A stretch of DNA of 64,000 bases from Kondoa subrosea (Eukaryota), in the NCBI GenBank assembly GCA_039545335.1, contig BCIN01000005.1:558001-622000 (forward strand), read 5' to 3'. Shown in pieces: positions 1-47,800 of this stretch; position 1 is the first letter of the stretch; the number at the start of each line of letters is the position of its first letter. A model generated the notes under the pieces. That model made no database searches. It saw only the letters and a list, made by a program, of their open reading frames with translations, and was not told where the DNA came from. Both the position numbers and the translations under genes were made by a program.

Positions 1-1921
1 GTTCTTTGAACTCTAATGGTTCACTCTCTTCAGGTCGGAACAAACGATCATGAGGACCAAACCAGGATCGATCTTGCGGATCTGAGTTAGGATCATCTGG
101 ATGTCCACCTAACCTCGAGTAGGCTCGAATGATAGTAAGGTTCCTTCTGTCAGGATGGATCACATCCCAGACTTGCTGTACAGAGTGCCATACAATCAGT
201 TGATAGACATTGAAATATGTTTTATCCGCACCTTATCGTATGCCAATTTCACTCTAGGGACCATCAGAATTCGTCCATACCCAGCTTCCCAATAATCGTT
301 GCAAATCAAAGAACATTCACTAGCCGAACATTCGCCTTCTCCTAATCTAGCCATCCTGAATCTGACATGTGGATGCGCATACATCGGAGCAGGATCAAGT
401 ACGGCGATACCATTCCAGCAAGACTGAACTTGAATTGGTAGATGCCTTTGGAAACGATGACCTGATTCTGGATCGCGGAAGATAGCTTCGAAAGGTGCAT
501 TTTCGAGTGCTGTACCGTTCATGTCCCTTGATACCCAGTTATCACTAGATGACCGAATTAAATCACGTCTAACTCAAATAACAGGAAAAAAGCTTACTAG
601 AAGACAGGTTGATTGATCTCGTCGTGGTAAATATAATCGGCTCCACAGGTGATTCCAGCATTCTGACGACGACTTTGCCAGATGAGTTCCAATACATCGT
701 CCACGCAAGGCAAGACATCGTTCTGGAAAATGACTGAATCGAAGACCTGTACGAAGATGGTGTGTGAACAAGGTCTACACCTGATCAGACGCCTTCAAAC
801 GTACCTCTCCTTCTGCATCCCTCAACTCTTGCAAAGGTGCCAGAGCAGCGTTTCGGACTTCTGCCAAGTATTCAATTCGATGATGGAAAGCACCTCTTGT
901 TCTTAAACTGGTCCGAATGATGACTCTTAACCCTACACTTCTTGCCAAAGCATCAAACAATCGCAAAAGTGCCTTCGTTTGATCCGTCGAACCATTTTCA
1001 TAAACGGAGACGAATACGTTTTGGAAGCCAAGGATAGAAGAGACTTTGAACATGGTAGAGAAGAGATCAGGGATGATATCGAAAGAGTTGTAGAGGTTGA
1101 TAGCGAAGAAGTATTTATGACCATCTTGCCAATTACCCATATCGGCGCGATGTTTGCCTTTTCCTGAAGCACCACCTTTTTGCGCATTGAGAATCCCATT
1201 CTTGAGTTCATCTTTTCCTTTAGCTAACAAAGAATCCGAATCTTTCGAGAACCGACGATGATTTCGATCATGAGATTTGAAGATTCGATCCACCTCTTCA
1301 TCGGAATCTCCATGATCGAATCCACCTTTCGCCATCCAAGCTTTTGGTACTACTCTGTTGAGTAATTTGAATGCAGATCTTCTAGCATCTTTTCTCTGAT
1401 AACCGACTAGAGGTTCATATCGCTCATACACCTGCCTCTTGTACGACGTTTGAACCGTTCGAGTACATTCTTTAGTATGATAACCAGGCATAGTAGATAA
1501 GACGTTGAAAACTCGATGTCTTTGAGCTAGAGTAGGTGTATAGTAAGGATTATGCCTTGTTCCTCCGACTCGATTCGAATGAGCCCAAGTTGGCGTTTTA
1601 GCTCCTGATAGCGAGTAAGCGCCACCAGAAGCAGGTTGCAGGGATTGAGCAACCAGGAGGCCCACGACTATTCCGATCAGTAGAGAGCCGACTGCCGGTA
1701 GCTGTATCGTTTCAATGAGCTTCAATCCGCTCCGTACTGCTGAGGACGCATACCTTGCGCTTGAGATAAGCGTAAATCAAGCCAATAGAAAGAGGTTGTG
1801 AAGGGTTCGGTCCATCGTCTGCTGTTGGAACACCCTTTTCGTTATTCGATAAAGAAATAGAGTCGTTAACTTTCCGTCTTCGAGGTGTTGTAGACATCGA
1901 AAGAGCGCTTGCTGAAGACAT
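1..1921 (-). CDS. CAP59: CAP59-like / cryptococcal mannosyltransferase (GT69 family), multi-exon; 3' end runs off the window
   Basis: Motifs YFFAINLYNS, VFVSVYENGSTDQT, HRIEYLAEVRNAALAPL, QVQSCWNGIAVLD and GECSASECSLICNDYW; N-terminal TM anchor; ATG at 1921; GT-AG introns join the ORFs. Confidence 0.85.
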
Positions 1922-29370: not shown

Positions 29371-29503
29371 CAAATGACATAGTTGTCGATCTCCCTTTTT
29401 TTAACTTTTCGATATAATCCCTGGTCCTGCTTTTTGTTCCTCCCGCTTATCGTCTATTCTCTCTTTCTATACTACCAAAATACTGGCTTCTCTAACAAGA
29501 AGG

Positions 29504-31613
29504 ATGGGCAAGACGGTAATCATCTTACATCGAAACGATTTACGTTTACGAGATCAAGCTCATTATCTCGCTGCTCACAATGATCCAAAAGTCGATAAAG
29601 TCTTACCTGTTTTCGTATTTGATGAACGAGCTCAAGAATTGAGCGGTTTGCCTGATTACAAGAGAGAAGGACCTGAAGCACGAACGAGAGTTTGTGGTTT
29701 CTGGCGAAGTGGAGCTCACAAGACTAGGTGCGAACAATCGTGTATTATAGCAGAGATGGCACTGATATGTGTGAACAGGTTTCTGGCTGATTCTGTTTAC
29801 GATCTGCAAAGCAATTTGAACAAAGTGGGAAGCAACTTGCTCGTTCGCTTTGGCAAACCAGAAAAGATTGTAGCAAGTCTGGCGAAGGCTCTACAGAGCG
29901 ATGGTAGCGAAGTAGCTATGTACACGCAGAAAGAAGTAGGTTTTCCTGTCGATAACCTTCAGCTCTTCGACTAAGGAAATGCGCAGTTCTGTAGCGAGGA
30001 ACTTTCCGTCGAACGCAAGCTCTCTAAAGCACTATCAGAGATGTCCGTAGAAACGAGATACTTCGACACTACTACTCTTGTTCGACCTGAAGATCTTCCT
30101 TTCAAAATCGAGGATTTACCAAACGTTTATACCGCTTTCAGAACAGCTGTAGAAAAGCTCGAAGAGATGGCTAAACCACCCGTAGAGACTCCAAAGAAGT
30201 ATAAACCTTGCCCAGAAATACCTAAAGACTGCGGTTATGGGGAACAATTCGACAAAGAGTCAGACCAGTTGAACGCTGTACTTCCATAGTAAGTCAGCCG
30301 CCTAATTTGTCTGTAAAACACTGAGTGTTTTTCTAGTCTTCTCAAACCCCTCGAAGATTCACCTCAGATGCAATTCGACCGACTTTCAGACAAAACAGCA
30401 GTTCCTTTCCGAGGAGGTGAAACGAGTGCATTAGAACGAGTTCAGTATTACTTTCAAGAAGGTAAAGAAGGTTCAGCACCACCAGTCAAGACATACAAGA
30501 CTACTCGAAATGGAATGTTAGGTCATGCTTATTCTACCAAACTTTCAGCTTTCTTCGCTACTGGTTGCATTTCACCTAAAACTGTTATTCAAGCTTTGGA
30601 TGAGTATCATCAGAAATATGGAGAGACTAAAGATTCGTATTGGGTTTCTTTCGAGATGCTTTGGCGGGATTATTTCTTGTTCTGTGGTCGCAAGTTTGGA
30701 ACGAAACTGTTCAGTGAGAAATCAGATTCTTGCGTTGAGAGTACTTCTCATACGTAGATTTGGCTGTCTCACAGCGCTGGACGGTTTCGAGGGCGCTATC
30801 AATCCTAAAGCAGCACGACAGAAAGCGGACAAATGGAAATCTTGGGATCCAAACGACAAAGTCCTCAAGTCTTGGCTAGAAGGGACTACTGGTATTCCTC
30901 TGATTGACGCAAACATGAGAGAACTCGTTCAAACAGGGTTAGATCATGAATATCTCTCTCTCGAGCTCTCACTTATGTTGTATTGCAGATTCATGTCGAA
31001 TAGAGGAAGGCAGAACGTTGCATCTTTCTTGATCAAGGACTTACCGTACTACGACTGGCGAATTGGAGCTGAATACTTTGAAGCTATGCTGTTTGATCAT
31101 GAGCCATGCGCGAATTCTGGTAACTGGCAATACCAAGCGGGAGTGTGAGTCCTACCTATTTCAGTCCTATTTCAGTACTTATCTACCGTTGCAGAGGAAA
31201 TGATCCGAGAAGTGATAGACAATTTAGTGAGTCTTTTGGAATGTTTCTGCACTTTGACTGACAAAAAGCAGATCCTATCAAGCAATCAAAAGATTACGAT
31301 TCAGATGGAAGCTGTGCGTATCGTCTCATCTGTTGCTACTTCTTCCCCTTATGTTCTTCCCGTAGATGTCCGTCAATGGATTCCAGAATTGAAGAATGTA
31401 CCAACTGTTTCAGTGCACAATCCTTGGGTCTTGTCAGCAGAAGACAGAGAGAAGTACGGTCTAGGCGATTACCCAGCTCAACCTGTTGTAGAACAATCTT
31501 CGTGGAAAAGTCATTACAACCGAACATCGAAAGAATCAGGCAACAAGGGCAAAAACAACAGGAAAGGACAACACAGGAAAGGACCTCAAAACAAAGGAGG
31601 AAAGAAGCATTAA
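29504..31613 (+). CDS. Cryptochrome DASH (photolyase/cryptochrome family)
   Basis: RNDLRLRD, GGETSALERV, YKTTRNGMLG..YSTKLS, EMLWRDYF, GTTGIPLIDANMREL, MSNRGRQNVASFL and SGNWQYQAGVGNDPR. Confidence 0.93.
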
Positions 31614-31859: not shown

Positions 31860-33065
31860 CTACTCCTCTGCCGCTGCCGCTGCTGCAGCTTCAGCTCTTG
31901 CCTTTCTTCTCTCTGCAGCCAATCTCTTGAGTTCTTCGACTTTAGTCTCATCATTCCTCTTTGCAAGTTTCGCAACTTTAGCCAACCGATCCTCTTCTTC
32001 CGCTTTCCTCTTCTTTTCATTCGATTCCAACATCTGAGCTTCCAATTCTCTAGACTGCCTTTCCCTCATTGCTCTCTTTCTAGCAATATCCGCTTTCGAC
32101 AAGAAGGCATTTGCAGGTTTCTCTGCTTCTGCATTCTTCTGCTCCTGGTTTCTTTGCGAAATAGGTATCGAGAAACCGGAGCCAGCAGCAGGGATTGAAG
32201 GGCCTTGAACCGGTCTCTTCTTTGCAATGTTCAAACCACCAGTGAGCAGTTCTGTTTTATCGACAATTTCACCATTCTCATTCAATTCCACTACTCGTCC
32301 GATAGTTTGAGCAGCTTCTCTTGCTAATTGAACATCGGAAACAGGTTCTTCGTCATAAACAGGTGTAGGACGTTGAATGATTCCAGGAGCAGCTTTATTT
32401 GAAGCAGCTTTAACAGCAGCTTCATTCTTTGCTTCATTGTTGGCCAAATATTCAGTAAAGAAGGAAGCCATGCCTTTGCCTTTAGCTTTAGCACTTTGAG
32501 CAGCTTCCCGAGCTTTCTCTTCTTCTTCAGCTTTACGTAATTCTTCTTGCTGTGCTAGATAAGCAGGAGTAACGAATGCATCCTTATCAGCAAATTCGGA
32601 GCCTTCTTTCTCTCTTTCCCGTTGAGTCATGATATCTTCAGCTCGAACTCGATCTTGTTTCCTTTGTTCAGCAGTTTTGAGTAATCCCTCAATATAGCGA
32701 GGCTGTTTAACATCGTCCGATACTTCAGCAAATGTAGTACACACGTAAAACACAGAGCTAACCTTGCGTTGTTGCGACTCTTTCTTGCGTTCCAGCTCAA
32801 CTGCCCTTTCGCCCGCTTTCATATTATCGTAAACCTCATCATACTCATAAACAGTAGCATCCAATGCCTCAGCTTCTTTAACCCTTTGCTTTTCAGCTCG
32901 GGACAAAGGTGCATTCACTTGAATGGGTAAACGAGAAGTTGAAGCTTGAGGTTGATCGTCGTCATCTGCTTCAAAGGCTGAAGGTTTCTTTTTGATTGAG
33001 CTGGTTGCTGTTGCAGAACCTTTCTTCAGAGCCGAAGGCTTCTTGAGACCGCCAATACTCAACAT
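31860..33065 (-). CDS. NSRP1/CCDC55-like (DUF2040) nuclear speckle splicing regulator
   Basis: DATVYEYDEVYDNMK, PRYIEGLLKTAEQRK and EREKEGSEFADKDAFVTPAY; coiled-coil character. Confidence 0.85.
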   Translation of the reverse strand: MLSIGGLKKPSALKKGSATATSSIKKKPSAFEADDDDQPQASTSRLPIQVNAPLSRAEKQRVKEAEALDATVYEYDEVYDNMKAGERAVELERKKESQQRKVSSVFYVCTTFAEVSDDVKQPRYIEGLLKTAEQRKQDRVRAEDIMTQREREKEGSEFADKDAFVTPAYLAQQEELRKAEEEEKAREAAQSAKAKGKGMASFFTEYLANNEAKNEAAVKAASNKAAPGIIQRPTPVYDEEPVSDVQLAREAAQTIGRVVELNENGEIVDKTELLTGGLNIAKKRPVQGPSIPAAGSGFSIPISQRNQEQKNAEAEKPANAFLSKADIARKRAMRERQSRELEAQMLESNEKKRKAEEEDRLAKVAKLAKRNDETKVEELKRLAAERRKARAEAAAAAAAEE

Positions 33066-33332
33066 TATTGAATTCCGTCGTTCTTGTCCAAAAGCAACCA
33101 TTTTTGATTGTACCCTGACTAGCTGTGGCTTAGCCTCAGCCTCTGTAGACCACTCTCGTTCATTCACTGCTTGGGACCTCCATTCGGATCCAAACATGCT
33201 TTGCGAAACTATCATGCAGCGTTGCGTGCTTCTTTCTCTTTGGCAACGAGTTTGGAGCCAAGTCGAACGCAGTTACGCGGTAACATTGATCGTTATATCT
33301 TGCTTTTGTACTGTTTCAGCTACTATTACAAA

Positions 33333-34288
33333 ATGACAATCTCTCGACGCATTACATGCTTCGCCTCAATTGACTATACCTCGAAGCTTCAATTACTCTT
33401 CTTTTTTTCTGCTCCATCATACTTCCTGATATATCGTTTCTACGCTCTTGCTTTCTTGTCCCGGTCAATTGCTTATCTTCGTCCTGTCTCAAAATCAGCA
33501 CGAAAAAGCAGGAGCGATAAGGTTCACGCATACCAAACTGGTATTATCAATGGGAGATATTCGGTTCGCGACCAAAGCTGATTGAGCAGTAGTGGGCTGT
33601 CCAGGTCGATGCCGTCCGGAATGAAATGGCACGGCAAGTTTGGGATAAAGAGTTTTCTCTTCTCTCTTGCCTCTTCAACCAAGCTTTATATACCCTTGAA
33701 GTCTTTGGAGGATATTTCTGGATCTTTGGAGATTACCCTAAGCCGCCCTTTTACCCGTAGATGGCTCAGAAGATAAGTTGGCTAGCATTCCTATTTGTTT
33801 TCAAAGCTCATTTCAGCAAGCTTGATATACAGGATCTTTCAGAAGGCAAGCCAGTAGATCTGCGTTTAGTTGTATCGGGGTGTGGAGCGCCCAACCCTCA
33901 ATGGAGCTACTATCCAGATCTACGAAGCTTGCCTTCTGGGGCAAGATGGCGAGGAATGCGAGACTAACAGGCGGGTCAGTTCTCCCTCAGCTATCTTCCA
34001 CTGGACGACTTGGCCGATTCTTCAGCTTGTTGCGACATGGACTACTCGTCAGCTCGACTGGACATCAACGGGATCTTGAGACTTTGACCTGGTAGCAAAG
34101 TTCTCTTTCCTTCGTCTTCTGCAAACTTCTCAGCATACCCTCAGCAACCCTTCTTTCGCTCTTAAACGTCTTGGCCTCTCTCGACCGGCTCGAGTGGTTA
34201 TATACTATTACATTGTCTTGTCTACTTGTGCTCCTTTGTCACAATTGGTCATATGAAATGATACGGCATTCATCACTACTTGATTAGT
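33333..34288 (+). CDS. Possible multi-exon hypothetical membrane protein
   Basis: A phase-consistent but weakly supported splice path joins hydrophobic segments; no domain recognised. Confidence 0.35.
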
Positions 34289-34362
34289 TCATTGATCCAG
34301 TCCGCTTTTGCCGGAAGAATGAGATCCTTCGAAGCTCTGTACATATTACATTGTTACAAATA

Positions 34363-36802
34363 CTAAGGAATACTAGTTGTCCCAGCTCCTGCGGCTAACC
34401 AATTCCCAACTTCTTCTTTGACCAAATAGGAATCGAAGCTCGACAAATCTTTAGCCAAATGTTTCTCATGAAACTCATGCCATCTTGCTAAACCTAATCT
34501 TTTGAAATGTTGAGGTCCTCGAATCCCATGTCTCCATAAGACTTGAGCTGCTGATTGTCCTAATCCTTCTTGCAAACTATCGAGGAATTCGCCCAGTTCT
34601 TTGTATGGTTCTGAAGCGAGGTAGACTGAAGAAGAGGGTAAAGTGGCAGAAGGTATGACAGGAGAGAGGGTAGAGCGCATAGAATCTGTATCAATAGCGA
34701 TCGAAATAGGTGCCGGAACTGGTCTTTCGACAATCGGAGGAGGACTTGGTTCAACAATCGGTCGAGGTTTAGGTGCCAACAAACGTGGATCAGATGTAGT
34801 TCTTGATTCAATAGGGCGAGGCTCGACTGGTGTAGCAGATCGACTTTTAGGTCGAGCGTAAGCCAATTTCGCTCTTGCGGAAGGTGCCATGGCTTGCTCT
34901 ACCGGTTGAGCTTGCACCGTTGTGATCGGAGCAACAGTAGCAGCTCTTGAAGCATCTTCCTTGTCTTGACCTGGCTTATGCTTGAACGAAGGCATCCCGC
35001 TGAATATTGACTTTGAGGTCGAAGGCACAGGTGCAGACGGGGCTCTCGTAACAGCTTTTGGCGGTGGAAGAGGTTTGGACTTTGATTCGACCGCTTTAGG
35101 TGCTTTGATGGTATCCTTCTTCGCCGGTGCAAGTCCTCGTAAAGGAACATCTTCCTCTGAACTGCTACCTGATTCAGCTTGTTGATCGGCATCTTCCATT
35201 TCTACGTCTTCATCTTCTGGTTCTGGTGAAGTAGAAGGTGTGGTGAGAGAATGAGCGCTGTGATTGAAATTGGATAGAGCCAGTCGCCAACCAGCAGTAT
35301 CGTCCGCTTTCAATCTGTGATTCAAAAGTGGAAACTCAGCTGGAATTCTAGCTGGAGTTCCCCAATCGAGCTCACATGACTTTGAAAGGGCATCTCTTTC
35401 CCCTATCACAACGATAGACGACTTTTTGATCCGATTGACTTTCTTTGATCATTTTCCAACCCAAATCCGATTCAGGTCTCAGTTCCACTTTGGCAACTCT
35501 CGTGAATGCCTTCATACTTGGGAAAGTTGAACCAGAGGGAAGAGATCGTTTAGGTGCTTTAGTGTCTGCTTCTTGCCATGTCGATTGATCTCGGACTAGA
35601 GCGATAGCTTCTGCTCCTACTTCCGCTGGAGAGCTTCGACTATCTTGAACTATAGGAGAAGGAAGACGAGTAGCTGTGGAGGACTTGCGCCGTTTATTGG
35701 CGGGAACAAGAGGGATTTCAGAGGGAGGTCGTTTTCTTGTTGGTGCAGCAGATTTGACTGTCGACGTACGAGCAGGTGGTGGTGGAGGGGTTGGTTCATG
35801 AAGGGATTCTTCTTCTGACATTTCTGCTTCGGCAGGTTCCTCCTCTTCCGCTTGAACAGGTACTTCAATATGCCTATGTTCATAATGGGCGCGTTGCACA
35901 ATCCTGTCATACCCAGCTCGAATCAACTCGGAACTCGTGAAGATCAAGTCTAAGTACTGACCATTGATTATGCAAGGTATTTAAAGCAGCATGAATTTGA
36001 AAAGTACACCTCTTGTTAGGATCATCAATAGCTCTCTTCCCACCATAATTGCAGCACAAATGAGAATGAGGTCGAGTCTTGCTTTCCGATTGATAGACTA
36101 CCAATTCCACGTTTTGTGACTTCGCATAAGCTCTCGCGGCTTTTTCGAACTTCTCCCGATCTTGAAGTTTCTGCTTTTCTACTAGAGGTGCCACGATAGA
36201 AGAAGAAGCTGTTGGGTTATTAGTTGTGGTTTTACGTAGTGCTACAGCAGCTGTTGGATCTATGGGACGTCGAGCAGGTAAATTGGCTGGATTGGCTGAA
36301 GCTTGATATACTTGAGAGCCGGTTGATTTGTGACCTTTGGATTTGACTGCAGGTCTGACTTGAGTTGCTACTTTGCTGCTAGATGCTATAGGATGATCAT
36401 GTTCGAAATCACATTCTCTGACGGTCCTGTGTTGAACGATTGTTTAGTCCGTCTGGACAATACTAAACAGGAAGCAGCTGACCAGACACCTGGTACCCTC
36501 TCAATGACTGTAGCAGCGAAACTACAGCTACATAACACCTCGCATGAGCCTAGCAAATCCAGTAGAACCTGAAATAATACAACATACCGATTCATAGCAT
36601 CGTTGTACTTTTTCGCTCCACCATCAGAGCAACACAAACACCATCTCCCATTGACCCTTTTCCCTTCATCATCCATCTTGGACAAGTTGCCAGCATATTT
36701 CACGAGTGCGATATGATGCTTCGCAGCATAAGCTCGGAAAATAGCTTCAAAGTCTTCTTTGCTGGCGAAAGTACTCCCAACTTTGAAGGGTATTGGGCTC
36801 AT
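34363..36802 (-). CDS. Protein with three tandem MULE/FAR1-like (WRKY-GCM1 fold) Zn fingers and a C-terminal SAM-like helical domain (~734 aa)
   Basis: Removing introns 36528-36587, 36427-36482, 35904-35961 and 35315-35375 gives an open 2205-nt frame with three C..C.F..W..HxH/HxxH repeats. Confidence 0.75.
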
Positions 36803-37024
36803 TAACTCTCTCTAATACTTGAAATGGTATATTTTAGTCACTGTTTGTTGAAAACCGAAGAAACGGGGTCAAAGTGCTCGAATGTCTCTCAATCTTAGCA
36901 TGGCAAAGAAAGACGCGTGACGATGTAAGAGCAAGAAACACAGCAAGAGTGACTCATGTGATGGCAGGCGATGTAATCCATTTTATCTTCTGATCCTGTA
37001 CAAGTCCCTTCAAACTCCGTCATT

Positions 37025-37768
37025 TCATTGCGGTTTCGGTGTCAGCGAGGCTGAGCCAATCTTCGCTAGTCCTTCGTCAGTATAGGCCTAAATACAATGA
37101 GTACAGAATGCGTAGACCTGGAAATACAGCTCACCAGCTTGTTGCCATCACTTGATAATGACTATCAGCATGCAGAAGTTGAGGAAGGGAGGTAAACTCA
37201 CCCGTTATCGCCAATGTTAATAGCTTTGCCCGTCTGTCATTAACAAGCGACGGTTTAGATGACAATACATCAGACCAAGCTCATACTGACCTTAGCTATT
37301 GTCTTGAAGACGTCTTCCTGTAGGATGCAGATATCTGCCTGATCAGATATAATCTGATGCAGGAGACTTATGCCCCACATATGAAGCAGATCCAGGAGTA
37401 ACGGAAACGGATTGAGTCTTGAGATCTACCTCAAAGTTCCTGTTCGAAAAGACCATATTGGTATCAGTACTTCAACTGAATCCAAATAGTCCCACGAACT
37501 TTACCCGGCCTGTCATAAGCTATCAGCGAATTGAGCACCGCTTCCAATATTGACGAACTTACCGTCACCCTTCGCTTTCTCCAATACGCGTGTGATTGCT
37601 CCAGAGCAGCCACTGTTCGTGAAAGAGCTTAGGCGTGGCTCAGATAGACACTGTCAAGAGCGAACCTGCATGTCATTGTGCAGTCGAATTGATAAGGTGA
37701 GTTCTTGAGTAAACATCAACTTGCGTAGATGACAAGCGAGTAGGAGTAGGGAAGCACACCATAGCCAT
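37025..37768 (-). CDS. ATX1: Copper chaperone Atx1 (HMA domain), 9 exons, 101 aa; absent from the ORF track
   Basis: Spliced product MAMNSPYQFDCTMTCSGCSGAITRVLEKAKGDGRVKNFEVDLKTQSVSVTPGSASYEDVFKTIAKTGK..., with MTCxxC and KTGK motifs. Confidence 0.88.
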
Positions 37769-38477
37769 ATTGGATCAAGTCGTGAACAGTAGCCAAGAGA
37801 GAGAGAGAGAAGCGCAGGCAAGCGGCGGTATCCAGAAGAGTTGCGTTGCCATGACAACGAAGCTTGTCTTCGAACGCTTCATCTATTGCGTTTTCTCTTC
37901 TTGTTTGCGCGTAACACTGTCGTTTCAGGTATTTTCTGTGATCTGCAACAGCAGGCTGTCTGTCGAAGAGGATCTCGAGCCATACATGCATACAGGCTGT
38001 CGGCAGAATCTTTATATTTCCATTTGAATCTCCTGTTGCTGGAGTATACCATTCAATCTGGTCTCTCGGCTGTATATATTCAGAGATATAGGTCAGTAGT
38101 GCATATTCAATGTTCCCTCTTTATTCAATGGTGTTCCATTCATTGATGTCAAATCCCGGCGCTCCTCTTCGTATCTGCCTGCCTGTGATCGCTACCGTCT
38201 GTCTGCTTTTTTCGATGACTCTTTGCCTTCGCACCGCCTGTACCGACTCAGCTTGAAAATGACTTGATATCGCTTCTTGCTAATCGTCGCCGTTGGTTTC
38301 TGGGGAAGAACATGCTATTATCTTCCTGCTGAAGTTACCAAGCTATTGTGAGCTGGCGCAATTGGTATACTGCACAGCTTTGGACTCCGCCTTGAGCGAA
38401 TGACTTCGAGCTTTGAGTTGACTCTTCTTCTGGTCCATACTTTTTCATATCTTCCATCTTCTTTCATCATCAATATC

Positions 38478-38924
38478 ATGGCTCCTCTACCTAATCATTC
38501 GACTACTACTCATGCCCCCAATCCGTACGATACGGCTGCTAGCATCGCCACGCATGTCGCCAATGGAAAGACTTTCACGGAAGCAGCTGCTCATCATACT
38601 CAGACAGCTACTACTACCTCTCATCCAACCGTCACGCCCATTCATTACGCTGCCTCTCAAGTTCTCTATGCAGGTCACACTGCCACTTTTGACCAGGGAT
38701 TCTTTAAGCCTCATCCCGAGATCGACCCAGATCTTCGAAGCCACGACGGGCCACTGATGTTGGGCATCGCTGGCGCGGGCCTTGTAGGAATAGGACCAAC
38801 AGCCGCGACGATGTCAACTTATAAATGGAGGGAACGCGAACATCAGCTTGCGCGTAACCGTGCGCTCCTCTCAGGGGAGCTCTCTGTGTCATACGGTACT
38901 ACACGAACAACTGGAACTCATTAG
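38478..38924 (+). CDS. Hypothetical Thr/His-rich small protein with one hydrophobic segment
   Basis: Clean ORF after a pyrimidine-rich leader; LMLGIAGAGLVGIG segment. Confidence 0.5.
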   Translation: MAPLPNHSTTTHAPNPYDTAASIATHVANGKTFTEAAAHHTQTATTTSHPTVTPIHYAASQVLYAGHTATFDQGFFKPHPEIDPDLRSHDGPLMLGIAGAGLVGIGPTAATMSTYKWREREHQLARNRALLSGELSVSYGTTRTTGTH

Positions 38925-44878: not shown

Positions 44879-47800
44879 TCACCTTCTACCTCTATTCGAC
44901 CAACCATTGTCCCTAGGCAAACGCGACTCATCAAACGACCTTCTTCCTCCTCCTCCTCGACCACCTCTCGAATCTCTTGAATCTCTTCGATAATCATCGT
45001 CGTAATCATCTCTGTATCCTCCTCTCCCACGAGAAGGTCCACTCCTTCTAGGTGGAGGTGATCTTGATCTAGATCGATTTCTAGGTGGTGGTCCTCTTCT
45101 GTCCCAATCTCCATCTCTTCCTCTGTCATCATATCGTTGCTGAGGATACGAATTTCCCGAAGGAAGAGGAGGACCAAAGCCGTTGTTTGTTGTATTAGAA
45201 GGAGGGGGACCACCTGGAACAGCAGCTAAAAGCGTTTGCAACAAATTAGGATCTGCAGCCAGGTTCTGCATCAGGCTAGGAGTAGAGTTCAACGCTGGCA
45301 TTAAGTTAGGGTTATTCATAATCCCGGCTGCTGCTTGATTGTTTGTCGAAAACAGATTTTGCAAGGCTGCAGGAGAAGATAAAAGACCTTGCAGAGCAGC
45401 TGGATCGATCAAGGAGAAATCAGGTAATGGAGGAGGAGCGGTCGTAGCAGCTGGACCAGTCGGCACACCAGAGAAAGCTGCTGGACCGGTAGGAATGAAT
45501 TGCTGCTGTGGTGTAGGTTGAGGAACAGGTTGCGGAATTGCTGGTGCTGCTGTTGGAAGAAGAGGGATTCCGCCAGATGGAACAGCTCCTTTGACCATCA
45601 CCATAACAGTCAACAAGAGATCAAGATCTCTTTCACCAGATTCGCCTAGAGCATGTTGATCCAACAATTCAATGTATTCAGGCAATGGATCTTTCGCCAG
45701 GAGAGGGACGACATAGATGTCCTTGACTATTTTCTTGAGTTGTTCAGAAGGAGGGCAAACACCAACTCGCTGTTTAGTAGCTAAATACTGAATAAGATGA
45801 TTCTGCTTCGCTGTGGCCGCTTCTCCAGAAGGTTTGTCTGATCGTTGTGGTGTTGGACCTCCTAGGTCTGGTAAACAGGCAATAACAACTAACTCCCTAG
45901 TCGGCGCAAAAGCGCATTGAATCAGATAATCCGAAGCCGTTTTCGAGCCTAGGCGACCTTCCATAAACATCTGTGGTGGTAGAATACTTCGCCAAGTAGC
46001 CGGATTATCACCAAGAGCACGGCCAGCCACTTGAACAGCAATAGATGGATAGCCACCCTCATCTGGCATAAGGACATCTCCAGTCCAAACCGGTGCGAAA
46101 GATCGAATAAATTCTGATTTAGGAATAGATTTTATCACTGGTGGACTTCCGGGAGGTGTTGTGCTGACCACAGGCGGTTTAGAAGCGCCGCTGAGTAATT
46201 CTTCCAGTTCCATATCCACATCATCTCCAGTTGTGGCAGGTACATTAGCGAACGGATCGTACTCTTCATCTTCGTCATTTGCAGTCGCTGTAGCTTCTTC
46301 TTCAACTTTAGGGGTAGTTGGCGCTTTGAAAGATCCCCAAATTGATGCAAAGTCGAATCTGCTCTTGGTCGCTGGTGATTGAGCAGGTGCATCATTTGAT
46401 GTAGTGGGGGGTGTTCCATCTTCTTTGCCTGGTGCCGGAGTAGACGGTAAAGAAGTCGGTTCAGAGACAATCAGTTCGTCCAGCAAAGCGTTCTCTTCCG
46501 CACCAAGATCAGGTTCAGGGATGAAAATTGATGAAGACAAGCGTTGACTCGTACTTGGCCTACGTTGATGCTGAGGCGAACGATTGAAGTCATCCGGAGG
46601 AGGCATAGAAAGAGACGGTGATCGAGAACCATCAAATCCGTCGTTGAAGCCTTGTGGACTTTGAGGATCGATTTGCATAGCTGAAGTAGAGGCTCGCATG
46701 ACTGGTCGACTTTCTGTCTCTGTTCGACTGGAAGTGTCAGCAGTAGCGGCTTCTTCGACCAATTCTTCTCCTTTGTGAGTCTTACGAATTCGTGGAGCAG
46801 CATCGACTTGCTTGACACTATCCTTCAGACTCCTCGCTCTGACATTTTCTGCCATGGCACGCAATTCCGGTGTAAGGAGATCTTCCATTGACAGATTGAC
46901 TAATTGAGTAGGTTCAAGCTCGCCAGTACCAATCTTTAGACGTAAAGTCTCGTTTGTCTTTAAATTGTAGAGCAGAGATCGAAATTTGCCAAGGTACTTT
47001 GTTTTGGGTGCCTTTTCCCCGCGATCAAGTTCAGCATATTGCTCAAACAATTCGCTTTCGACAGTTGAAGAGAAGTCGAAAGAGCGCTGAGAAGGAGGAC
47101 CAGGTGGACCTGGAGCAAAGATGGCTTCCAATTGTTTGGCCAAAGTTTCGATGCAGGATTGACGAGTCCGATCTGATTGCGGTACTGATCCGCCTGAACT
47201 GTTCGTTCGACGATGTGAAGAAGAAGATGGTTTCTGCTCAAGAACTGTCAGCATCAGAACAATGGGATGATTACAAAGACATACCCTCTGTTTGGTCAAA
47301 CCCAATCTTTCTCGCCTATCTTCAGGCAATTCCGCATCTCCTTCACCAGTGTAATCATCATCTTCGTCTTCGCTACTACTCAGACCTTCTGCTTTCTTTT
47401 GCTTCTTCTTCTTCACAGCACTGGCTCGACTCGTAGTGGGTTTGGCTGGTGCCGCACGACGTTTCTTCTTCTGTTCAACAATTCGAACATGATCGTTTTC
47501 GGACTCGTTCATTCTGGTGTCCGATCCAGCACCTTCTTGGTCTGCGTAGTCTTCTTCTGGTTCATAGCCTTCGGGCAAGACTGTATGAAAAGAATTCAAT
47601 TAGTACTTTGGTCAATGAAGTGTAACATGTTCAGGGGAAAAGAGAAACAGGTGCAGCTACGGGATTGCTTGAGTAGCACGAATCACCTGTTCGCACGACT
47701 TATTGGCTAGAAGCTCATCCTCAGGAGCAGGCGAGAGCTATGTACTCGTTGCACATTGCTGCAGCCACAGGCATCGGTTGCTGAGATAGTACGCAAAACA

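What the first reader, a model, noticed from the sequence alone, without database searches (positions are those of the whole stretch)
34363..36802. Orphan protein with three tandem MULE-transposase-type Zn fingers and a SAM-like tail: candidate domesticated, triplicated DNA-binding regulator
Seen: the spliced ORF (~734 aa) contains three repeats. Repeat 1 is VGSTFASKEDFEAIFRAYA...CCSDGG...RCSF...WTVRECDFEHDH. Repeat 2 is KLQDREKFEKAARAYA...CCNYGG...RCTF...WIVQRAHYEHRH. Repeat 3 is GSTFPSMKAF...CDRGKRCPF...WRLALSNFNHSAH. Pro/Ser-rich linkers separate them, and the protein ends in a helical module (ELGEFLDSL...AAQVLWRHGI). Established: C..C-x-F..W..HxH preceded by G-x-x-F is the WRKY/GCM1-fold DNA-binding domain of Mutator-like transposases and their domesticated derivatives (FAR1/FHY3, Aft1/2, FLYWCH). 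I see no DDE catalytic core and no terminal inverted repeats. Inference: this is a host-captured, multivalent DNA-binding protein that may oligomerise via SAM, acting as a transcription factor or a repressor of MULE termini.
Basis: partly seen in the sequence, partly recalled or inferred. Interest (0 to 1): 0.72.

Follow-up and report, generated by a model that had tools for sequence, protein, structure and literature searches.

The report
Fungal gene with transposon-type zinc fingers
This is a single-copy fungal-type gene for a probable DNA-binding protein whose zinc fingers most likely descend from the DNA-binding part of a Mutator-type jumping gene, a known route to new regulators, so it is a modest new family member rather than a new kind of system.

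Summary
A 5-exon gene on the minus strand (ATG 36802, stop 34363-34365, four GT..AG introns of 56-61 nt) gives a 734-aa protein containing the quoted strings.

Repeats 1 and 2 are clear duplicates: Smith-Waterman z = 16.6, with 0 of 1000 shuffles reaching the score. They share a phase-2 intron inside the conserved Trp codon. Repeat 3 is not detectably similar in sequence (z 1.4 and 2.4; HMM score -2.9), but it has the same C-x13-W-x8-H ligand spacing (166 of 200,000 shuffles). It is a separate short-spacer finger, not a third copy.

Assignment to MULE/FAR1-type WRKY-GCM1 fingers rests on motif architecture plus weak, mutually consistent signals. Pfam gives ZSWIM3_N E 0.041, AFT 0.091 and DBD_Tnp_Mut 0.15, all below cut-off. 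ESM Atlas scores are 0.78-0.81.

No whole domain could be tested, because introns split each one. Structure models were low-confidence.

There is no transposase domain or convincing TIR. The gene has one copy in a ~19-Mb assembly and housekeeping neighbours.

It is not a strict orphan: three unannotated ORF clusters are 41-48% identical, with all Cys ligands invariant. The SAM-like tail is unsupported. No RNA data exist.

The parts
36588..36802 (-). Exon 1 (ATG at 36802). It encodes the N-terminal two thirds of finger R1, up to the codon before the third Cys.
   Evidence: Pfam ZSWIM3_N E 0.041-0.047, 14.7-14.9 bits against a cut-off of 27.8.
36528..36587 (-). Intron 1: 60 nt, GTATGT..TAG, phase 2. 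It is in frame and stop-free if retained.
   Evidence: ORF 36386-36811 reads through it. Splicing it out gives R1 the same CC-x14-C spacing as R2.
36483..36527 (-). Exon 2 (45 nt). It encodes the third Cys of R1 up to the split Trp codon.
36427..36482 (-). Intron 2: 56 nt, GTCAGC..CAG, contains ACTAAC. It splits the conserved Trp codon of R1 (phase 2).
   Evidence: Similarity of orthologues P0004 and P0007 begins just after this acceptor.
35962..36426 (-). Exon 3. It encodes the last strand and HxH of R1, linker 1, and most of R2 up to its split Trp codon.
   Evidence: It is 41-48% identical to P0001, P0003, P0004 and P0007. ESM Atlas gives FAR1/AFT/ZSWIM3_N leads at 0.78-0.81.
35904..35961 (-). 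Intron 3: 58 nt, GTCAGT..CAG. It splits the conserved Trp codon of R2 (phase 2), the same position as intron 2 in R1.
   Evidence: P0001 ends, and the other three orthologous ORFs lose similarity, right after this Trp.
35376..35903 (-). Exon 4. It encodes the end of R2 (HxH), acidic linker 2 with a bipartite basic cluster, and most of R3.
35315..35375 (-). Intron 4: 61 nt, GTGAGC..CAG, phase 2. An in-frame TGA overlaps the donor, so splicing is needed to continue the frame.
   Evidence: Alternative junctions are listed.
34363..35314 (-). Exon 5. It encodes the end of R3 (W, H-x2-H), the 207-aa Pro/Ser/Thr/Ala-rich linker 3, the helical tail and the TAG stop.
   Evidence: Pfam found 0 families.
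36393..36784 (-). Finger R1 (residues ~7-98, spans introns 1 and 2): CC-x14-C-x13-W-x8-H-x-H, insert type.
35870..36179 (-). Finger R2 (residues ~170-253, spans intron 3): CC-x14-C-x14-W-x8-H-x-H, insert type.
   Evidence: Pfam AFT E 0.091 over the Cys core. The Cys ligands are invariant in 4 of 4 orthologous ORFs.
35251..35533 (-). Finger R3 (residues ~366-439, spans intron 4): C-x5-C-x13-W-x8-H-x2-H, short-spacer type. It holds exactly 2 Cys and 2 His.
   Evidence: It has no significant sequence similarity to R1 or R2.
35684..35737 (-). Bipartite basic cluster (residues 298-315: RKR, 11 residues, KRRK). Candidate nuclear localisation signal.
   Evidence: Pattern found. The reading as an NLS is inferred from the recalled classical bipartite consensus.
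34366..34623 (-). C-terminal module (residues ~649-734). Helical in a low-confidence model, aromatic-rich, fold unknown.

Best explanation
The locus is a single-copy host gene of a basidiomycete-like yeast. It encodes a nuclear, sequence-specific DNA-binding protein, most likely a transcription regulator. The DNA-reading part is an array of zinc fingers of the WRKY-GCM1 superfamily.

Fingers R1 and R2 are of the insert-containing type found at the N-terminus of Mutator-like (MULE/FAR1) transposases. They arose by tandem duplication of an exon-intron unit inside the gene. Finger R3 is a separate short-spacer C-x5-C...H-x2-H module of the same general design.

Each finger would bind one Zn through 2 Cys and 2 His and present a small beta-sheet to the major groove. 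Three fingers on flexible Pro/Ser-rich linkers would read a composite or repeated site. Acidic stretches and a bipartite basic cluster in the linkers would provide activation and nuclear import. The C-terminal helical module is of unknown fold and role.

Shown here: the gene structure by sequence, the R1/R2 homology, the ligand spacing, the single-copy state, the lack of a transposase domain, and conservation in relatives. Inferred: the WRKY-GCM1 fold, zinc binding, DNA binding, nuclear location, the regulatory role and transposon ancestry.
For: Gene model:
- The frame is open across five exons, with four canonical 56-61-nt introns.

R1 and R2 are homologous:
- Smith-Waterman z 16.6, 0 of 1000 shuffles reached the score. 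tblastn E 2.8e-5.
- Both are interrupted by a phase-2 intron in the same Trp codon.

- CC-x14-C-x13/14-W-x8-H-x-H in R1 and R2.
- A helix then three strands in the R2 model, at low confidence.

R3:
- C-x13-W-x8-H spacing matching R1, seen in 166 of 200,000 shuffles; 2 of 200,000 with the second His.
- All 10 Cys of the protein sit in the three modules.

Weak database signals all point to one clan:
- ZSWIM3_N E 0.041 on R1, DBD_Tnp_Mut E 0.15 on orthologue P0004, AFT E 0.091 on the Cys core of R2.
- In the ESM Atlas, all ten best hits that carry a family fall in one family or clan (FAR1, AFT, ZSWIM3_N), at scores 0.78-0.81.
- The clan was named before the search. Counted against its roughly ten Pfam models (a recalled number) instead of 24,736, these E-values are about 1e-5.

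Conservation:
- 3 real clusters among the 6 hits at E<=1e-3 from 1.84 billion representatives.
- R2 is 33-36 of 72 residues identical without gaps, against 20-21 of 66 in the linker for the full-length rows.
- The LCC, GG and RC positions are invariant in 5 of 5 rows.
- One relative has HxC where R1 has HxH, a swap that keeps a metal ligand.

Host-gene status:
- One contig covers the gene in each of two ~19-Mb assemblies at >=80% likeness.
- 0 of 22 distinct ORFs scanned, out of 49 of >=150 aa, hit a transposase family. Neighbours include Mpp10, a Na/H exchanger, photolyase, NSRP1 and TFIIS-SPOC.
Against: - No Pfam family reached its curated cut-off: best 14.9 bits against 27.8, 13.5 against 21.6, 12.2 against 25. 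An unrelated family (CwfJ_C_1, E 0.018-0.047) scored as well on R2.
- The ESM scores are below the 0.9 that the tool treats as more than a lead, and a third of shuffled proteins also give ten concordant hits.
- A profile of the orthologue alignment found no WRKY, GCM or AFT chain among PDB sequences.
- R3 has no significant sequence similarity to R1 or R2. Its spacing rests on an unverified splice junction.
- The two assemblies are from the window's likely source sample, so the copy-number result is not independent. Diverged copies below 80% identity would be missed.
- The relatives are known only as exon-3 ORF fragments. Conservation of R1's start, R3 and the tail is unknown.
- DNA binding, zinc binding and expression are untested.
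Confidence: 0.6

Rival explanations
1. It is a remnant or non-autonomous derivative of a Mutator-like element: a 'solo' DNA-binding-domain gene that is, or recently was, mobile or parasitic on active MULEs. It would regulate or compete for transposon ends and would have no host function.
For: The finger type is the one typical of MULE transposases. PMC1702500 (section 15 passages read) proposes defective elements carrying single or multiple WRKY-GCM1 domains that spread in fungal genomes. One weak inverted pair brackets the gene: 33763-33788 and 36971-36996, 26 nt, 77% complementary.
Against: - Only one contig matches the gene at >=80% likeness in each ~19-Mb assembly.
- There is no second copy in the 64-kb window.
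- The bracketing inverted pair is no better than the 10 other chance-level pairs in 6.3 kb.
- No transposase family was hit in 22 of 49 ORFs scanned or in the gene itself.
- The neighbours are housekeeping genes.
- Relatives at 41-48% identity keep the ligands and the intron position, which argues for long vertical maintenance.
Confidence: 0.1
2. The Cys/His modules are real zinc-binding domains of this fold, but they serve protein-protein or RNA recognition. The protein would be a scaffold or adaptor and not a DNA-binding regulator.
For: The best single Pfam signal is to ZSWIM3_N, a family whose members are not established as DNA-binding factors (recalled). About half of the protein is disordered-looking linker, typical of scaffolds. 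DNA binding is untested.
Against: The characterised members of the superfamily (WRKY, GCM1, FLYWCH, Aft/Rcs1, Rbf1, MULE transposase N-termini) are DNA-binding domains (PMC1702500, abstract and section 8 read). A bipartite basic cluster and acidic stretches fit a nuclear regulator.
Confidence: 0.15
3. The gene model is wrong or the locus is decaying. The 734-aa product would not be made as drawn: the junctions differ, intron 1 is retained, or R3 and the tail belong to a separate or untranslated part.
For: No RNA evidence was obtainable. Several other GT..AG pairs keep the frame: 24 candidates for intron 4 and 20 for intron 3. Intron 1 is in frame and stop-free. No relatives were found for exon 1, or for exon 5 and its tail.
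Against: - The chosen junctions have the best consensus (GTRAGY-like donors, YAG acceptors, one ACTAAC) and a uniform 56-61-nt length.
- Three of four junction pairs restore matching ligand spacing between repeats.
- P0001 ends, and the other three orthologous ORFs lose similarity, at the intron-3 donor. P0004 and P0007 gain similarity at the intron-2 acceptor.
- All five exons are open over 2.2 kb.
Confidence: 0.1

Closest known systems
Insert-containing WRKY-GCM1 family: N-terminal DNA-binding domain of MULE transposases and their stand-alone fungal derivatives (Babu, Iyer, Balaji & Aravind 2006, PMC1702500; Pfam FAR1 PF03101, DBD_Tnp_Mut PF03108, ZSWIM3_N PF21599)
   Same: R1 and R2 have the insert between the Cys ligands, a conserved Trp before the HxH, C-x22/23-HxH spacing and a predicted N-terminal helix. 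The gene stands alone without a transposase domain, as the paper notes for genes in Cryptococcus neoformans and Ustilago maydis.
   Different: No Pfam model reaches its cut-off. Two such fingers sit in tandem with a third of another type and a long disordered C-terminal half with an unassigned helical module.
Aft1/Aft2 (Rcs1p) and Rbf1p, yeast transcription factors derived from MULE DNA-binding domains (PMC1702500; Pfam AFT PF08731)
   Same: Same proposed route: a transposase DNA-binding domain kept as a host regulator in a narrow fungal lineage. There is a weak AFT match over the Cys core of R2 (E 0.091).
   Different: Those factors are not described there as tandem arrays. Here there are two to three fingers. 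There is no evidence here of iron regulation or any other specific role. The lineage is basidiomycete-like, not Saccharomycetales.
[quoted passage not shown]
   Same: Several fingers of this superfamily in one polypeptide, joined by linkers.
   Different: Those arrays repeat one finger type. Here the array is mixed: two insert-type fingers plus one short-spacer H-x2-H finger. The WRKYGQK and FLYWCH signature motifs are absent.
SAM (sterile alpha motif) domains (Pfam SAM_1 PF00536, SAM_2 PF07647)
   Same: The tail is a small C-terminal module, helical in a low-confidence model. SAM_TNK, SAM_1/SAM_2 and SAM_NCD1 clusters appear among ESM leads at 0.83-0.86.
   Different: There is no Pfam or PDB sequence match. 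The top ESM hit is EcoEI_R_C, and only 1 of the ten best hits with a family agrees with it. The low-confidence model shows three long helices, not a compact five-helix bundle.

Membership tests
WRKY-GCM1 superfamily, insert-containing (MULE/FAR1-type) family | Four metal ligands in the order Cys, Cys, His, His, with about 22-23 residues between the second Cys and HxH | tested here: met
   R1 has C73-x22-H96-x-H98 and R2 has C227-x23-H251-x-H253. R3 has C413-x22-H436-x2-H439, with two residues between the His. Zinc binding itself was not tested.
WRKY-GCM1 superfamily, insert-containing (MULE/FAR1-type) family | Insert between the two conserved cysteines (PMC1702500, section 8) | tested here: met
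   R1 and R2 have 14 residues between the CC pair and the next Cys. R3 does not (C-x5-C), so R3 is not of this family type.
WRKY-GCM1 superfamily, insert-containing (MULE/FAR1-type) family | Conserved Trp in the fourth strand (PMC1702500, section 8) | tested here: met
   W87, W242 and W427 each lie 8 residues before the first His. The Trp is kept in 3 of 3 distinct orthologous R2 sequences. Its placement in a strand is inferred.
WRKY-GCM1 superfamily, insert-containing (MULE/FAR1-type) family | [quoted passage not shown] | tested here: inconclusive
   The AlphaFold2 model of the R2 N-part (5-row alignment) has a helix at 10-23 followed by strands at 27-31, 40-45 and 60-65. Mean pLDDT is only 55.5.
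WRKY-GCM1 superfamily, insert-containing (MULE/FAR1-type) family | Significant profile match to a family model (FAR1, DBD_Tnp_Mut, AFT, ZSWIM3_N, WRKY, FLYWCH, GCM) | tested here: inconclusive
   Only sub-threshold matches were found: ZSWIM3_N 14.9 bits (cut-off 27.8), AFT 13.5 (21.6), DBD_Tnp_Mut 12.2 (25). Every query was a domain piece cut by an intron. The spliced domains could not be submitted.
WRKY-GCM1 superfamily, insert-containing (MULE/FAR1-type) family | Four-stranded beta-sheet fold with a zinc site | tested here: inconclusive
   The truncated R2 model has low confidence. The best VIA match had Z 4.1 and Foldseek gave no hit at E<=0.001. No WRKY or GCM chain was listed.
Autonomous Mutator-like element (MULE transposon) | Transposase catalytic (RNase H-like DDE) domain, often with a SWIM finger | tested here: not met
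   Pfam on the four large exons (716 of 734 residues) found no MULE, transposase or SWIM family, even at E<=10. Among neighbouring ORFs, 0 of 22 scanned had one.
Autonomous Mutator-like element (MULE transposon) | Long terminal inverted repeats flanking the element, and multiple copies in the genome | tested here: not met
   The best bracketing inverted pair is 26 nt at 77%, within the noise of 11 pairs found in 6.3 kb. One contig covers the gene at >=80% likeness in each of two ~19-Mb assemblies. Target-site duplications were not examined.
Classical WRKY family | WRKYGQK motif in strand 1 with a short Cys spacer | tested here: not met
   No WRKY motif occurs in the 734-aa translation. R3 has the short spacer and a Trp-Lys 16 residues before its first Cys, but not the motif.
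[quoted passage not shown] | Short spacer between the N-terminal Cys, and HxC in place of HxH | tested here: not met
   R3 has the short spacer (C-x5-C) but ends in H-x2-H. The orthologue P0001 has HxC at the R1 position, on an insert-type finger.
SAM domain | Profile match to SAM_1/SAM_2 or a related Pfam model | tested here: not met
   Pfam found 0 families on exon 5 at E<=10. phmmer against PDB sequences found 0 hits at E<=10.
SAM domain | Compact five-helix bundle fold | tested here: inconclusive
   The single-sequence model has pLDDT 61.3 and shows three long helices and one short one. Foldseek gave no hit at E<=0.001. ESM leads to SAM families score 0.83-0.86, below the tool's 0.9 mark.

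The most novel reading that the evidence does not exclude
A small, unannotated, lineage-restricted family of regulators was built from a captured MULE DNA-binding domain. An intron-bearing finger unit was duplicated inside the gene: R1 and R2 share a phase-2 intron in the same Trp codon. It was then joined to a finger of a different WRKY-GCM1 subtype and to a C-terminal helical domain with no known relative. The result would be a mixed three-finger reader that recognises a long composite site, possibly the ends of resident MULEs, as a genome-defence repressor.
Probability: 0.2. Interest if true: 0.5.

Novelty: new member of a known kind. Interest (0 to 1): 0.32.

Why it matters
Transposase DNA-binding domains are a known source of new transcription factors, including FHY3/FAR1 in plants and Aft1/2 and Rbf1 in yeasts. 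Stand-alone WRKY-GCM1 genes in basidiomycetes were noted in 2006 but remain uncharacterised.

This locus adds a clean example: single-copy, intron-bearing and conserved at its ligand positions. The shared intron records the internal duplication, and the finger array is mixed in type.

It also shows that such genes escape standard annotation. No Pfam model passes its cut-off, and the only relatives are unnamed ORF fragments. The interest is moderate: the finding extends a known theme and does not open a new one. Function remains untested.

Tried and rejected
- Whole-genome search: no genome is held for this window.
- Word-index homologue searches found nothing: exon 1 against longer proteins, exon 5 against longer proteins, and the tail region against proteins of near length. 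The tool itself calls such blanks weak evidence.
- Two metagenome-contig scans, with alignment A3 and with P0007, confirmed no locus. Synteny, full-length orthologues and dN/dS could therefore not be done.
- Sequencing runs: no RNA holder is listed. Only two DNA runs of the probable source sample hold the stretch, so splice junctions could not be checked with reads.
- PDB sequence searches with exon 1, the tail and profile A3 gave no meaningful hit.
- Structure: the tail model (pLDDT 61.3) and the R2 N-part model (pLDDT 55.5) were too uncertain.
- Fold searches found no match at Foldseek E<=0.001. The best VIA Z was 4.1, to a secretion-system protein. No WRKY, GCM or SAM chain was listed.
- Self-association of the tail: the complex job returned 'no answer'. 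It is not used as evidence either way.
- The three other profile hits (P0002, P0005, P0006) are tandem-repeat proteins that match short CC..GG-like stretches many times. They were dropped as artefacts by inspection.
- MAFFT misaligned R3, so R3 was judged by ligand spacing instead.
- tRNA and Rfam scans of 33000-38500 found nothing.
- Earlier-findings look-ups returned nothing bearing on this locus. The 'FAR1' word search returned unrelated genomes.
- A literature search for domesticated FAR1-type fingers in Basidiomycota listed no paper on such a gene (listing only). This is not proof of absence from print.
Full report
**What is there**

The interval 34363-36802 is a complete coding sequence on the minus strand.
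- It starts at the ATG at 36802 and has five exons: 36802-36588, 36527-36483, 36426-35962, 35903-35376 and 35314-34363.
- Four GT..AG introns of 60, 56, 58 and 61 nt separate them.
- The open CDS is 2205 nt and encodes 734 aa, ending at the TAG at 34365-34363.
- The intron sizes are uniform and the donors are GTATGT, GTCAGC, GTCAGT and GTGAGC.
- The acceptors are TAG or CAG, and intron 2 contains ACTAAC. This is a fungal-type gene.
- Other frame-keeping GT..AG pairs exist: 24 candidates around intron 4 and 20 around intron 3.
- The chosen pairs have the best signals and give matching spacing between repeats.
- No RNA data could be found, so the junctions remain predictions.

**The repeats**

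R1 (residues ~7-98) and R2 (~170-253) are homologous beyond doubt.
- The local alignment score is 100, against 24.3 +/- 4.6 for shuffles. That is z 16.6, and 0 of 1000 shuffles reached it.
- tblastn of the protein on the window finds R2 with R1 at E 2.8e-5.
- Both have CC-x14-C-x13/14-W-x8-H-x-H.
- In both, a phase-2 intron splits the codon of that Trp. The unit was therefore duplicated as DNA after the intron was there.

R3 (~366-439) differs.
- Pairwise scores are at chance level: z 1.4 with 100 of 1000 shuffles reaching it, and z 2.4 with 29 of 1000.
- An HMM of R1, R2 and three orthologous R2 pieces scores R3 at -2.9 bits.
- Yet R3 contains exactly two Cys and two His, arranged C-x5-C-x13-W-x8-H-x2-H.
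- The C-x13/14-W-x8-H part, defined from R1 and R2 alone, turned up in only 166 of 200,000 shuffles of the 480 residues after R2. With the second His it turned up in 2 of 200,000.
- All 10 Cys of the protein lie in the three modules. The linkers are 48-52% Pro/Ser/Thr/Ala and have no Cys.

So there are three Cys2His2 modules, but the protein is a duplicated pair plus a distinct short-spacer finger, not a triplication. The R3 spacing depends on the intron-4 junction.

**What family**

Babu et al. [quoted passage not shown] These are an insert between the conserved Cys, a conserved Trp in strand 4, and a helix N-terminal to the core, with HxH as the last ligands.

R1 and R2 meet the sequence-level features. 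A low-confidence AlphaFold2 model of the R2 N-part shows a helix followed by three strands (pLDDT 55.5).

Database support is weak but points one way:

| Query | Pfam family | E-value | Bits (cut-off) |
|---|---|---|---|
| R1 | ZSWIM3_N | 0.041-0.047 | 14.7-14.9 (27.8) |
| R2 of orthologue P0004 | DBD_Tnp_Mut | 0.15 | 12.2 (25) |
| Cys core of R2 | AFT | 0.091 | 13.5 (21.6) |

- The ESM Atlas lists FAR1, AFT and ZSWIM3_N clusters at 0.78-0.81, and all ten best hits that carry a family fall in one family or clan.
- The clan was named in advance. Correcting for its roughly ten Pfam models (a number I recall, not one from a call) instead of 24,736 brings these E-values to about 1e-5.
- Against this, none passes a curated cut-off. 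An unrelated family (CwfJ_C_1, E 0.018-0.047) scores equally on R2. The ESM scores are 'lead only' by the tool's own calibration.
- Each query was a domain fragment, because an intron cuts every finger. The spliced domains could not be sent to Pfam or to the structure tools.
- Fold searches with the poor models gave nothing usable.

I put the MULE-type WRKY-GCM1 assignment of R1 and R2 at about 0.8. I put R3 as a finger of the same superfamily at about 0.6.

**Not a transposon**

- The protein has no transposase or SWIM domain.
- 0 of 22 distinct ORFs scanned, out of 49 ORFs of >=150 aa in the window, hit a transposase family.
- The neighbours that do hit a family are ordinary genes. They are a CAP59-type mannosyltransferase, Mpp10, a Na/H exchanger, photolyase, NSRP1, TFIIS-SPOC and a TPR protein.
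- Inverted repeats in 32500-38800 are all short and imperfect. The pair that brackets the gene is 26 nt at 77%, one of 11 similar pairs.
- In each of two Logan assemblies of about 18.8-18.9 Mb, one contig covers the whole 5.5-kb stretch at identity.
- The only other record laid at >=80% likeness matches just an 81-nt intergenic piece.
- These assemblies probably come from the window's own source, so this shows low copy number in that genome only.

**Not a strict orphan**

An exhaustive profile search (R1 and R2 N-parts against 1.84 billion representatives) gave 6 proteins at E<=1e-3.
- Three are tandem-repeat artefacts.
- Three are real: P0001 (1.8e-15), P0003 (4.3e-12) and P0004 (3.3e-11). 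P0007 is a member of P0004's cluster.
- All are unnamed ORF fragments from Logan, ENA or JGI assemblies.
- They are 41-48% identical to exon 3.
- R2 is 33-36 of 72 residues identical without gaps. The linker is 20-21 of 66 in the full-length rows and 18 of 38 in the partial P0003.
- L-C-C, G-G and R-C-T are invariant in all five rows.
- P0001 ends, and the other three ORFs lose similarity, right after the R2 Trp. That is where intron 3 begins here, so the intron position is shared.
- P0004 and P0007 also carry the end of R1 with HxH. P0001 has HxC there, a change that keeps a metal ligand.
- Nothing was found for exon 1, for exon 5 or for its tail. The loci could not be fetched.

**The tail**

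Residues ~649-734 are aromatic-rich and helical in a low-confidence model (pLDDT 61.3).
- Pfam and PDB sequence searches are blank.
- The ESM top hit is EcoEI_R_C at 0.88. SAM_TNK, SAM_1/2 and SAM_NCD1 follow at 0.83-0.86, and there is no agreement among the top families.
- Foldseek found nothing at E<=0.001.

The SAM reading is a lead that I could neither support nor exclude. I give it about 0.2.

**How it most likely works**

This part is inferred. The protein is a nuclear DNA-binding regulator.
- Each finger binds one zinc through two Cys and two His and inserts a small sheet into the major groove, as in solved WRKY and GCM1 domains (PMC1702500).
- The flexible linkers let two or three fingers read a composite site.
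- Linker 2 holds a bipartite basic cluster (residues 298-315), and linkers 2 and 3 hold acidic runs. These fit nuclear import and activation.
- Descent from a MULE transposase DNA-binding domain follows the published pattern for fungal stand-alone genes of this family.

**Verdict**

This is a new, divergent member of a known kind: a transposon-derived WRKY-GCM1 zinc-finger host gene. It has a mixed finger array and an unassigned tail. Interest is moderate to low.

Noticed in passing
window 36528-36587 (minus strand): Intron 1 is exactly 60 nt and has no in-frame stop. If retained, it would add 20 residues inside the inter-cysteine insert of finger R1, giving a 754-aa isoform. ORF 36386-36811 reads through it.
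   Followed up: partly
window 34039-34119: An 81-nt stretch in the intergenic region just downstream of the gene has a second copy on a different 9.9-kb contig of the same assembly, with 15 differences in 81. It is not a tRNA or an Rfam family.
   Followed up: partly
window 36290-36325 (linker 1, minus strand): A short patch of the otherwise divergent linker between R1 and R2 (Y-x-A-S/T-A-N/Q..P-A) is conserved in all four related ORF fragments. It could be a short linear motif.
   Followed up: no
P0001 (related ORF fragment): At the end of R1 this relative has HxC where the window and P0004 have HxH. This is the ligand pattern of the separate 'HxC family', but here it sits on an insert-type finger.
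   Followed up: no
window 29405-31613 (+): A photolyase/cryptochrome gene is split over several ORFs: DNA_photolyase E 7e-12, and FAD_binding_7 E 1.2e-26 and 6.9e-6. An NSRP1-like gene lies at 31860-33272 (-), directly downstream of the finger gene.
   Followed up: no
window 44879-47599 (-): A 906-aa ORF carries TFIIS central and SPOC domains (a Bye1/PHF3-like architecture). There is also a CAP59-type mannosyltransferase at 775-1776 (-). Both fit a basidiomycete yeast-like genome.
   Followed up: no
P0002, P0005, P0006 (database proteins): Three tandem-repeat 'proteins' reached E<=1e-3 against the finger profile only through repeated CC..GG-like words. This is a reminder that short Cys-rich profiles pull in repeat artefacts.
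   Followed up: yes
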